A stretch of DNA of 64,000 nt from an uncultured Candidatus Saccharibacteria bacterium (GTDB lineage: Bacteria > Patescibacteriota > Minisyncoccia > Phycocordibacterales > UBA9988): positions 16,457 to 80,456 of the forward strand of contig CAYNXC010000002.1 in NCBI GenBank assembly GCA_964401135.1, read 5' to 3'. Both the position numbers and the translations under genes were made by a program. Numbering within the stretch: position 1 is the stretch's first letter; each line of letters opens with the position of its first letter. Shown here piece by piece: positions 35,563-36,514 of this stretch. The notes below the pieces were generated by a model. It was not told the origin of the DNA. It did not search any database and worked only from the letters and a program-made list of their open reading frames with translations.

Positions 35563-35661
35563 CTACACCGTTAAGTGTAGGAATTTGCTAACTTTGGTTC
35601 TATATACTATAGTTAGCATATATTCTTGAGAATTTTCATTGCAAAATTCTCGGGGGGGGGG
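35563..35661. promoter_or_regulatory. Divergent control region with three inverted repeats and a G10 homopolymer
   Basis: Three inverted repeats: CTACAC-n6-GTGTAG (35563-35580), TGCTAACT-n17-AGTTAGCA (35586-35618) and GAGAATTTT-n6-AAAATTCTC (35628-35651). G10 is at 35652-35661. Confidence 0.45.
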
Positions 35662-36514
35662 TAAAATTGAGAACAATATTCATGAATAAAATCTTTAAAA
35701 GACTACTCGTATTTGCGGTACTATTTGCTCTTACTTCTTCGAATGTTTTTGCTGCAACTAAAACCTGGGACTTTTCCACTTCGTCGGACTACACTTTTGA
35801 TACTACTAAAATTGAAGTCATAGGAGGACAAGCACAATTGAAAGCTACAACAACTCCTGCTTGGTATGACACCAGTTGGAAATATAGAAAGAAAATATCA
35901 ATTGACCATACAAAAATATCGTCAGATTTAACAGATTTTCCTGTTCTCGTTAATCAAACTTCTGACTCAGACTTGGCAGCCAAAGCGTTAACGTCAGGTA
36001 ACGATATATTTTTCACTTCATCTGATGGAGTTACAAAACTAAGCCACGAAATAGAGACATATGCATCAACAACAGGAGCTTTAGCTGCATGGATTAAAGT
36101 TCCTACAGTATCCTCTTCTGTAGATACTGATGTTTATATGTATTATGGTAATGCTGCAGCTTCTGCTCAAGCGAATGCAAATGGAGTATGGGATAGTAAT
36201 TCAATTGTTGTTCAACATCTTAATGCTACTACTAGCCCAGCACTAGACTCAACATCTAATGCGAATAGTGGAGTTCAGTCTGGAGGAGTTACTTTCAGTG
36301 CAACAGGCAAGATAGGTAATGCTGTGAGCATGGACGGTGTTAATGACAAACTATCCTTAACAAGTAATAGTGGCTTAAACGCAACAGGCACCCTAAGTAT
36401 TAGTGCATGGGTAAATAGAACTGCATCGGGCAAGATGAGGGTAGTTGCAAAAACAGTTACTACTGGAACAACTGACAACCCATATGATTTTGGTATAAAT
36501 ACGGATAATACACT

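What the first reader, a model, noticed from the sequence alone, without database searches (positions are those of the whole stretch)
35563..35681. Control region with three inverted repeats and a G10 tract just upstream of the surface-protein gene
The 119 bp between the XRE gene (minus strand) and the adhesin-like gene (plus strand) contain three inverted repeats:
- CTACAC-n6-GTGTAG (35563-35580)
- TGCTAACT-n17-AGTTAGCA (35586-35618), whose spacer contains TATATACTAT
- a perfect 9-bp repeat GAGAATTTT-n6-AAAATTCTC (35628-35651)

The last repeat is followed immediately by ten consecutive G (35652-35661), 20 nt before the ATG at 35682.

The repeats are candidate XRE operators. A G10 homopolymer between a promoter or operator and a surface-protein start is the classic layout for slipped-strand phase variation.
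Basis: partly seen in the sequence, partly recalled or inferred. Interest (0 to 1): 0.5.

Follow-up and report, generated by a model that had tools for sequence, protein, structure and literature searches.

The report
Variable poly-G switch before surface-protein gene
A run of ten G's just upstream of a cell-surface protein gene, carried on a small mobile island in a Patescibacteria (CPR) genome, has 9, 10 or 11 G's in otherwise identical copies from different samples. This is the signature of a slippage-driven expression switch, which has not yet been described in this group of bacteria.

Summary

G10 is the longest homopolymer in the 64 kb. Near-identical contigs from other samples carry G11 and G9. 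Against one of them, the tract is the only difference in about 10 kb.

A consensus scan places the tract inside the spacer of a sigma-70-like promoter, TTGCAA-N17-TAAAAT. The three alleles give spacers of 16, 17 and 18 nt, the same layout as the Neisseria porA/opc/fetA switches. The promoter and any effect on expression are inferred, not shown.

The three repeats are not equivalent:
- **IR2** is nearly invariant next to every relative of this XRE protein, across Patescibacteria mobile elements. It overlaps a conserved promoter and is the likely XRE operator.
- **IR1** is kept only in some relatives.
- **IR3** and the G tract belong to the cargo side, where homology with other elements stops at about 35621. 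Neither is found elsewhere.

In this window the surface-protein gene, 1175 aa when intact, is broken by a 2.97-kb IS1595 transposon that carries a restriction-modification pair. The whole locus sits on a roughly 10.6-kb island next to tRNA-Ser (about 7.6 kb without the transposon).

Verdict: a real, probably functional contingency locus, and a new member of a known kind.

The parts
35652..35661 (+). G10 homopolymer, the hypermutable tract. It is G11 in L001/L119 and G9 in L002/L120.
   Evidence: It is the only difference from L001 in about 10 kb, and the only internal indel (away from alignment ends and the transposon junction) against L002.
35639..35667 (+). P2, a candidate core promoter TTGCAA-N17-TAAAAT. 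Its spacer is AATTCTC plus the G tract. Spacer length is 16, 17 or 18 nt for G9, G10 or G11.
   Evidence: This is a consensus match only: 0.8 +/- 1.0 such sites are expected by chance in the region.
35628..35651 (.). IR3, a perfect 9-bp inverted repeat GAGAATTTT-N6-AAAATTCTC centred on the P2 -35 hexamer. It is cargo-specific. It may be an operator for an unidentified regulator, or a hairpin in the 5' UTR.
   Evidence: It is absent from all related elements.
35586..35618 (.). IR2, TGCTAACT-N17-AGTTAGCA, including the near-invariant core CTAYATACTATAGTTAGCA. This is the conserved operator/promoter core of the XRE family.
   Evidence: Hairpin z = -5.3.
35585..35613 (+). P1, TTGCTA-N17-TATAGT, a conserved promoter pointing towards the cargo. 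In relatives L098, L106 and L107 the cargo ATG lies 6 nt after TATAGT, which implies a leaderless mRNA.
35563..35580 (.). IR1, CTACAC-N6-GTGTAG, directly abutting the XRE start codon. It would form a hairpin in the XRE leader or act as an auxiliary site. It is kept in the L087 group and L105 but absent in L098, L106 and L108.
35350..35562 (-). The XRE/HTH_3 regulator, 70 aa.
   Evidence: HTH_3, E = 2.4e-13. One search shows thousands of relatives at 80-93% identity in Patescibacteria.
35682..36522 (+). 5' part of the surface-protein gene: signal peptide, DUF2341 and the start of the LamG domain. It is interrupted after 36522.
36523..39495 (+). IS1595-family transposon inserted in the gene. It has 26-bp terminal inverted repeats with 2 mismatches and an 8-bp target duplication, TTATTTAA, at 36515-36522 and 39496-39503. 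It carries a 177-aa ORF (-), the transposase, a Dam-type methyltransferase and a PD-(D/E)XK nuclease.
39504..42190 (+). 3' part of the surface-protein gene: LamG, fn3/Pur_ac_phosph_N repeats and two PG_binding_1 domains.
   Evidence: 841 + 2687 nt = 3528 nt, matching the intact 1175-aa gene in L001 and L002.
33915..35225 (-). Large serine recombinase of the island, 436 aa, downstream of the XRE gene on the same strand.
32504..32589 (+). tRNA-Ser(GGA) at the left boundary of the island. The island runs from about 32590 to about 43183.

Best explanation
The 119-bp region is a two-part control region on a mobile island.

**Left part (35563 to about 35621).** This is the conserved regulatory core of a Patescibacteria XRE-family mobile-element module. 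IR2 is the XRE operator. It overlaps two promoters that occupy the same DNA on opposite strands:
- P1 (TTGCTA-17-TATAGT) points rightward to the cargo.
- A weaker mirror-image promoter points leftward to the XRE gene and the recombinase.

IR1 lies in the XRE leader.

**Right part (35622-35681).** This belongs to the cargo gene, a secreted DUF2341/LamG/fn3 protein with two peptidoglycan-binding domains. It carries that gene's own promoter, P2 (TTGCAA-N17-TAAAAT).

**The G tract.**
- It fills the P2 spacer.
- It changes length by slipped-strand mispairing during replication. This step is supported by the observed G9, G10 and G11 alleles.
- Each gain or loss of a G changes the -35/-10 spacing between 16, 17 and 18 nt, and so would raise or lower transcription of the surface protein in a heritable, reversible way. 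This step is inferred.

**IR3.** It is centred on the P2 -35 hexamer and would let a repressor act on the same promoter. This step is also inferred, and the binding protein is unknown.

**State in this genome.** The gene has additionally been knocked out by an IS1595 insertion.
For: **Tract variability**
- The tract is G10 in the window, G11 in L001 (SRR27197509) and G9 in L002 (SRR27901409).
- Against L001, it is the only difference in about 10 kb. Against L002, there are only 2 SNPs in 7.6 kb besides it.
- It is the longest homopolymer in the window.

**Promoter layout**
- The promoter scan finds TTGCAA-17-TAAAAT with the tract in the spacer. The two other alleles give spacers of 18 and 16 nt.
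- porA, fetA and opc carry their unstable homopolymers between -10 and -35 (PMC2791445).

**Gene product**
- The N-terminus has the form of a Sec signal peptide...SNVFA/ATK (my reading of the translation; no predictor was run).
- It carries DUF2341, LamG, fn3 and PG_binding_1 domains.

**IR2 and the backbone/cargo boundary**
- The IR2 core is near-invariant beside XRE relatives that are 55-93% identical to this one. Sequence to its right is unrelated between elements.
- P1 is conserved and drives an apparently leaderless cargo ATG in L098, L106 and L107.

**Leader length**
- Most genes in the window lack a Shine-Dalgarno motif and have a -10-like box 4-9 nt before the ATG.
- A promoter close to the start, such as P2, therefore fits this genome better than the 62-nt SD-less leader that P1 would give.
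Against: - P2 is only a consensus match. The scan expects 0.8 +/- 1.0 such sites by chance in this AT-rich region. Its -10 box ends 14 nt before the ATG, so the mRNA would have a leader of roughly 7 nt rather than being strictly leaderless.
- All three observed spacers (16-18 nt) are within the working range of sigma-70 promoters. The effect could be a modest change in level rather than on/off.
- No transcription start, expression or read-level data are available.
- The three lengths come from short-read assemblies, in which homopolymer calls are the least reliable positions.
- Neither the tract nor IR3 is conserved in any other element or upstream of distant homologues. There is therefore no comparative evidence of selection for the tract.
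Confidence: 0.55

Rival explanations
1. The gene is transcribed only from the conserved promoter P1, with a start near 35620. The G tract and the IR3 hairpin lie in a 62-nt 5' UTR. Tract length then acts after transcription, through mRNA folding around the start codon or mRNA stability, or the G run serves as a Shine-Dalgarno-like element for the TTG at 35667.
For: - P1 is the conserved promoter in all related elements.
- The predicted fold of 35620-35700 has the IR3 hairpin followed by G's paired with codons 4-5, enclosing the AUG.
- GGGGG lies 5 nt before the TTG at 35667, which opens the ORF listed.
Against: - The fold is not significant (z = -1.7).
- The 3' edge of the tract stays fixed relative to the TTG and the ATG, so its length would hardly change any SD spacing.
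- Two independent gene callers start at the ATG (288-aa and 1175-aa products).
- Most genes in the window lack an SD motif or a long leader.
Confidence: 0.2
2. The tract is a hypermutable but functionally neutral homopolymer. It may be a leftover of the junction where the cargo module joined the XRE backbone. Its length changes have no consequence for expression.
For: - Neither the tract nor IR3 is conserved in any related element or homologue.
- All three lengths keep a 16-18 nt spacer.
- One G/C run of 10 or more in a genome of about 1 Mb is not far from an independent-bases expectation (my estimate).
Against: - The tract sits exactly in the spacer of the best promoter-like site, directly before a secreted surface protein. 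That position covers only a few percent of the sequence.
- Established knowledge: long G/C runs are normally purged from bacterial genomes unless they are maintained.
Confidence: 0.15
3. The length differences are assembly or sequencing errors at a homopolymer. The real tract has one fixed length.
For: - Illumina error rates rise at long G runs, and all of the data are short-read assemblies.
- No reads could be inspected.
Against: - Three independent assemblies each give a clean consensus with perfect flanks.
- A consensus follows the majority of reads, so majority lengths differing by +1 and -1 indicate real population differences.
- No other homopolymer or other position differs from L001 in 10 kb.
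Confidence: 0.07
4. The tract lies in a translated region. Translation starts at the TTG at 35626, and only lengths of 3n+2 (G11) put that start in frame with the main ORF. This would be a classical frameshift on/off switch.
For: - Translations show the frame from the TTG at 35626 stops at TAA right after G10.
- With G9 it stops 2 codons into the gene.
- With G11 it reads straight into MNKIF....
Against: - There is no SD before this TTG, and TTG is a poor leaderless start.
- The 19-aa extension would sit in front of an already complete signal peptide.
- The ATG at 35682 remains available in every allele, so the main ORF is never out of frame.
Confidence: 0.03

Closest known systems
Neisseria meningitidis porA, opc and fetA promoter-spacer homopolymers
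   Same: - A G (or C) homopolymer lies between the -35 and -10 hexamers of an outer-surface protein gene.
- Length changes of one base alter the spacer (PMC2791445).
- From my own knowledge of van der Ende 1995, porA alleles also span G9-G11.
   Different: - The organism is a Patescibacteria/CPR bacterium, not a host-adapted proteobacterial pathogen.
- The gene is cargo of a mobile island.
- The promoter, the transcription start and the effect on expression are unverified here.
- An inverted repeat (IR3) sits on the -35 hexamer.
Neisseria meningitidis nadA, where a repeat tract is flanked by NadR operators
   Same: The variable tract lies next to a candidate operator. TTGAGAA is repeated on both sides of the tract, 41 nt apart, so tract length would change operator phasing (PMC2791445).
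   Different: - The nadA tract is a tetranucleotide repeat upstream of the core promoter.
- No regulator for IR3 is known here.
Haemophilus influenzae hifA/hifB divergent promoter with TA repeats
   Same: The repeat tract lies in an intergenic region between divergently transcribed genes. The van Ham 1993 reference is listed in PMC2791445.
   Different: In hif the repeat lies in the overlapping spacers of both promoters. Here the tract is about 90 nt from the XRE start and outside the conserved XRE promoter core, so only the surface gene should be affected.
Phage and mobile-element Cro/CI-type (XRE, HTH_3) repressors with palindromic operators over divergent promoters
   Same: - A 70-aa HTH_3 protein.
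- A conserved palindromic site (IR2) covering back-to-back promoters.
- The XRE gene heads the backbone operon of an integrative element, alongside Phage_CRI and a serine recombinase in relatives.
   Different: - The half-sites of IR2 are 25 bp apart centre to centre, further than in typical Cro/CI operators.
- Binding has not been tested.

Membership tests
SSR contingency locus, promoter-spacer class (porA/opc type) | A long mononucleotide tract, about 8 nt or more for G/C | tested here: met
   G10 at 35652-35661, the longest homopolymer in the window.
SSR contingency locus, promoter-spacer class (porA/opc type) | Tract length differs between otherwise near-identical genomes or populations | tested here: met
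   G9, G10 and G11 in L002, the window and L001. The tract is the only difference from L001 in about 10 kb. These are assembly consensus sequences only; no reads were inspected.
SSR contingency locus, promoter-spacer class (porA/opc type) | The tract lies between the -35 and -10 hexamers of the promoter that drives the gene | tested here: inconclusive
   The consensus scan places it in TTGCAA-N16/17/18-TAAAAT. Such matches are expected by chance at 0.8 +/- 1.0 per region, and no transcription start is mapped.
SSR contingency locus, promoter-spacer class (porA/opc type) | Expression level changes with tract length, and switching is reversible and frequent | not testable with these tools
   This needs reporter fusions, transcriptomics or single-colony switching assays.
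SSR contingency locus, promoter-spacer class (porA/opc type) | The controlled gene encodes a surface-exposed or environment-facing product | tested here: met
   An N-terminus with the form of a Sec signal peptide (my reading of the translation; no predictor was run), plus DUF2341, Laminin_G_3, fn3 and two PG_binding_1 domains. Surface location is inferred from the domains.
XRE (HTH_3) repressor with cognate operator | The regulator carries an HTH_3 DNA-binding domain | tested here: met
   PF01381, E = 2.4e-13.
XRE (HTH_3) repressor with cognate operator | A palindromic site overlapping the promoter and conserved together with the regulator | tested here: met
   - IR2 core GCTAAC...CTAYATACTATAGTTAGCA lies beside all XRE relatives examined, including the distant L112 and L115.
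- IR1 is present in a subset only.
- IR3 is not conserved and is unrelated in sequence.
XRE (HTH_3) repressor with cognate operator | The protein binds the site and represses transcription | not testable with these tools
   This needs EMSA, footprinting or reporter assays.

The most novel reading that the evidence does not exclude
This is a working slippage-driven contingency locus in a Patescibacteria/CPR bacterium, and no such locus turned up in two full-text searches for this group. A poly-G promoter switch, flanked by an operator, would tune a peptidoglycan-binding LamG surface protein. The gene travels between hosts on a tRNA-associated mobile island, so the switch would be horizontally transferable. 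It could govern how these ultra-small episymbionts present themselves to host cells or phages.
Probability: 0.4. Interest if true: 0.6.

Novelty: new member of a known kind. Interest (0 to 1): 0.45.

Why it matters
Phase variation through simple-sequence repeats is textbook biology for host-adapted pathogens such as Neisseria, Haemophilus, Campylobacter and Helicobacter. Two full-text searches found no report of it in Patescibacteria/CPR.

CPR bacteria have tiny genomes and are thought to live attached to other cells, so their surface proteins are central to their lifestyle. This locus offers three things:
- **A testable case.** The tract varies between natural samples in front of a secreted, wall-binding protein. 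Public reads from the named SRA runs could be used to test it directly.
- **A mobile switch.** Such a switch can ride on a mobile island.
- **A widespread regulatory module.** The island's XRE-operator module is one of the most widely conserved regulatory cassettes seen in these mobile elements.

Tried and rejected
- **Metagenome pattern scan.** A scan for the hairpin, a variable gap and the leader found only one unrelated chance match, L004.
- **IMG/VR scan for IR3.** No hits.
- **Recombinase relatives.** Eighty GTDB loci with 68-91% identical recombinases were fetched to compare the control region. Only one (L071) has an XRE-like hit, at 37% identity and not upstream of the recombinase. None carries DUF4238, DUF5681 or the surface gene. 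They were therefore useless for tract comparison.
- **Distant homologues of the surface protein (P0032, P0040).** No homopolymer of 7 or more bases upstream, and no XRE gene.
- **Extra contigs.** Contigs carrying the exact XRE, recombinase or 1175-aa protein collapse to the same three Logan contigs. Two further contigs could not be retrieved.
- **The end of contig L003 at 35620.** I considered this as a sign of within-sample tract heterogeneity and rejected it. The contig ends 31 nt before the tract, exactly where the backbone/cargo homology stops.
- **IR3 as an intrinsic terminator.** No terminator-like site on either strand.
- **Known RNA families.** None at the locus.
- **Inverted repeats as inversion sites for the serine recombinase.** The spacers are only 6-17 bp, too short for an invertible segment.

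Full report
**1. The observation**

- IR1: CTACAC-N6-GTGTAG, 35563-35580.
- IR2: TGCTAACT-N17-AGTTAGCA, 35586-35618.
- IR3: GAGAATTTT-N6-AAAATTCTC, 35628-35651, a perfect repeat.
- G10 at 35652-35661, then 20 nt, then the ATG at 35682.

The CAT at 35560-35562 is the start of a 70-aa HTH_3 (XRE) gene on the minus strand.

G10 is the only homopolymer of 9 or more bases in the 64 kb. From the base counts, an independent-bases expectation is about 0.06 G/C runs of 10 or more per window (my estimate).

In dinucleotide-preserving shuffles of the 119 nt:
- A perfect 9-bp arm appears in about 1%.
- Two repeats with arms of 8 or more also appear in about 1%.
- Three or more 6-bp repeats appear in about 8%.

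IR3-like hairpins are not rare in the window overall, with roughly 15 in total.

**2. Gene context**

The downstream gene is not intact in this window.
- Its ORF ends at 36548, and a second ORF at 39728-42190 carries the rest of the domains.
- Contigs from other samples that encode the identical XRE protein carry one uninterrupted 1175-aa gene. Its domains are DUF2341, Laminin_G_3, fn3/Pur_ac_phosph_N and two PG_binding_1.
- Alignment shows a 2,973-bp insertion at 36523-39495. It has 26-bp terminal inverted repeats and an 8-bp target duplication, TTATTTAA.
- The insertion encodes an IS1595-family transposase, a D12-class adenine methyltransferase, a PD-(D/E)XK nuclease and a 177-aa ORF.

The whole locus lies on an island.
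- The island runs from the 3' end of tRNA-Ser (32504-32589) to about 43183.
- It contains a DUF4238 gene, a 436-aa large serine recombinase, the XRE gene, the surface gene and two DUF5681 ORFs.
- In contig L002 the same island, 99.9% identical, is flanked by a different tRNA and different DNA. The island is therefore mobile.

**3. The G tract varies**

- The tract is G10 in the window, G11 in L001 and G9 in L002. Every other base of the intergenic region is identical.
- Over about 10 kb of alignment with L001, the tract is the only difference. Over 7.6 kb with L002, there are 2 SNPs plus the tract. The remaining mismatches are alignment-end effects at the transposon and island junctions.
- Two independent length changes in one 10-nt tract, against essentially no other change, is what a slippage-prone repeat predicts.
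- The caveat is that these are short-read consensus sequences, and I could not inspect reads.
- A third contig, L003, ends at 35620. I do not count that as heterogeneity, because that point is where homology between related elements ends (section 5).

**4. Position relative to promoters**

A consensus scan finds two sigma-70-like sites on the plus strand:
- P1: TTGCTA-17-TATAGT, 35585-35613.
- P2: TTGCAA-17-TAAAAT, 35639-35667.

The P2 spacer is AATTCTC plus the G tract. The G11 and G9 alleles give spacers of 18 and 16 nt. The P2 -35 hexamer lies in the loop and right arm of IR3, so IR3 is centred on it.

The scan expects 0.8 +/- 1.0 sites by chance, so P2 is a hypothesis and not a finding.

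Two points favour a promoter close to the start:
- Most genes in the window lack a Shine-Dalgarno motif and have a -10-like hexamer 4-9 nt before the ATG.
- P1 would give a 62-nt leader with no SD.

Against P2, its -10 box ends 14 nt before the ATG, which would leave a leader of about 7 nt.

**5. What the inverted repeats are**

The XRE protein has thousands of relatives at 80-93% identity in Patescibacteria. In the relatives examined:
- The XRE gene heads an operon made of XRE, an ORF of about 300 aa, a small ORF, a Phage_CRI replication protein and a serine recombinase.
- The divergent cargo varies between elements and includes DUF2726 with an SMC-like ATPase, DUF3761 and bPH_2.

Next to every relative, including distant ones from IMG/VR (L112, L115), lies the core GCTAAC...CTAYATACTATAGTTAGCA. 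This is IR2 together with P1.

To the right of ...AGTTAGCATAT (about 35621) the sequences are unrelated between elements.

In L098, L106 and L107 the cargo ATG follows TATAGT by 6 nt. That implies a leaderless mRNA from P1.

The three repeats therefore differ in status:
- **IR2** is the conserved operator/promoter core of the XRE module. Binding by XRE is inferred.
- **IR1** is kept in the L087 group and L105 but not in L098, L106 or L108. It abuts the XRE start codon.
- **IR3** and the tract are specific to this cargo gene. They have no match in the window, in IMG/VR or in the JGI metagenomes. The IR3 arms share no sequence with the IR2 arms, so one HTH protein is unlikely to read both.

None of the 11 related elements has a G/C run of 6 or more within 400 nt of the XRE start. 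Distant homologues of the surface protein have no tract upstream either.

**6. Mechanism proposed**

- **Shown:** a long G run whose length differs between near-identical copies, located in front of a protein with a signal-peptide-like N-terminus and wall-binding domains.
- **Inferred:** the run forms the spacer of the gene's own promoter, so slippage changes the spacing between 16, 17 and 18 nt and alters transcription. This is the porA/fetA/opc arrangement (PMC2791445).
- **Inferred:** IR3 is an operator on the -35 hexamer. TTGAGAA also recurs 41 nt apart on both sides of the tract. This recalls the operator-flanked nadA tract in the same paper.
- **Observed:** in this genome the gene is in any case inactivated by the transposon.

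**7. Rivals**

- Tract in the 5' UTR of a P1 transcript, confidence 0.2. The predicted fold is not significant (z = -1.7).
- Neutral hypermutable run, confidence 0.15.
- Assembly artefact, confidence 0.07.
- Frame switch through an upstream TTG, confidence 0.03. G11 does put the TTG at 35626 in frame with the gene while G10 and G9 do not, but the ATG is available in every allele.

**8. Comparison and novelty**

- The locus works like a promoter-spacer contingency locus. It meets the sequence-level criteria of tract, polymorphism and surface product.
- Promoter position is inconclusive, and the expression effect is untested.
- Full-text searches found no report of repeat-mediated phase variation in Patescibacteria/CPR, and nothing on this element family.
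- I rate it a new member of a known kind, of moderate interest.

Noticed in passing
window 36523-39495 (target duplication 36515-36522 and 39496-39503): An IS1595-family transposon carries a passenger restriction-modification pair (a D12 adenine methyltransferase and a PD-(D/E)XK/DpnII-like nuclease) plus a 177-aa ORF with no Pfam match. It is inserted in the surface-protein gene, and L001 and L002 show the empty site.
   Followed up: partly
window about 32590-43183; L002 1-109 and 7745-7862: The island is about 7.6 kb without the transposon. It starts right after tRNA-Ser(GGA). In L002 the same island, 99.9% identical, sits after a different tRNA with unrelated flanks, so it has recently moved between sites or hosts.
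   Followed up: partly
window 35350-35621; loci L087-L111, L112, L115: The 70-aa XRE protein and its roughly 35-bp operator/promoter core are conserved almost unchanged across thousands of Patescibacteria sequences. They mark the border between a backbone (a roughly 300-aa ORF, Phage_CRI and a serine recombinase) and highly variable divergent cargo. In several elements the cargo ATG lies 6 nt after the -10 box, which implies a leaderless mRNA.
   Followed up: partly
window 33915-35225; loci L007-L086: The 436-aa large serine recombinase has relatives in at least 575 stretches of the GTDB species-representative genomes, and the 80 best are 68-91% identical. A few MAGs are labelled as non-CPR (Rhabdochlamydiaceae, Methanoregula, Gammaproteobacteria), possibly through mis-binning. 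None of the 80 loci examined shares any neighbour with this window.
   Followed up: partly
L003 (SRR27197514), end corresponds to window 35620: The contig stops exactly at the backbone/cargo homology boundary and, at the other end, at the island/tRNA boundary. In that sample the XRE-recombinase backbone may be joined to more than one cargo or context.
   Followed up: no
whole window, e.g. starts at 22916(-), 37198, 43253, 50068: Most genes lack a Shine-Dalgarno motif and have a TATAAT-like hexamer 4-9 nt before the start codon. This suggests widespread leaderless or very short-leader mRNAs in this genome.
   Followed up: partly
window 42234-42689(-) and 42580-43098(-): Two overlapping ORFs with similar sequence lie at the right end of the island. 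The first matches DUF5681 weakly (below Pfam's cut-off); the second was not scanned. L002 has one 135-aa version.
   Followed up: no
window 57477-60635: 23S and 5S rRNA genes with no 16S gene anywhere in the window.
   Followed up: no
window 29632-31539: A 635-aa membrane protein next to LemA-like and HtpX-like ORFs (my reading of the translations) ends in a long Gly/Ser/Ala tail (...GGGGAGGGGGGGGGGAS). The tail is encoded by G-rich but not homopolymeric DNA.
   Followed up: no
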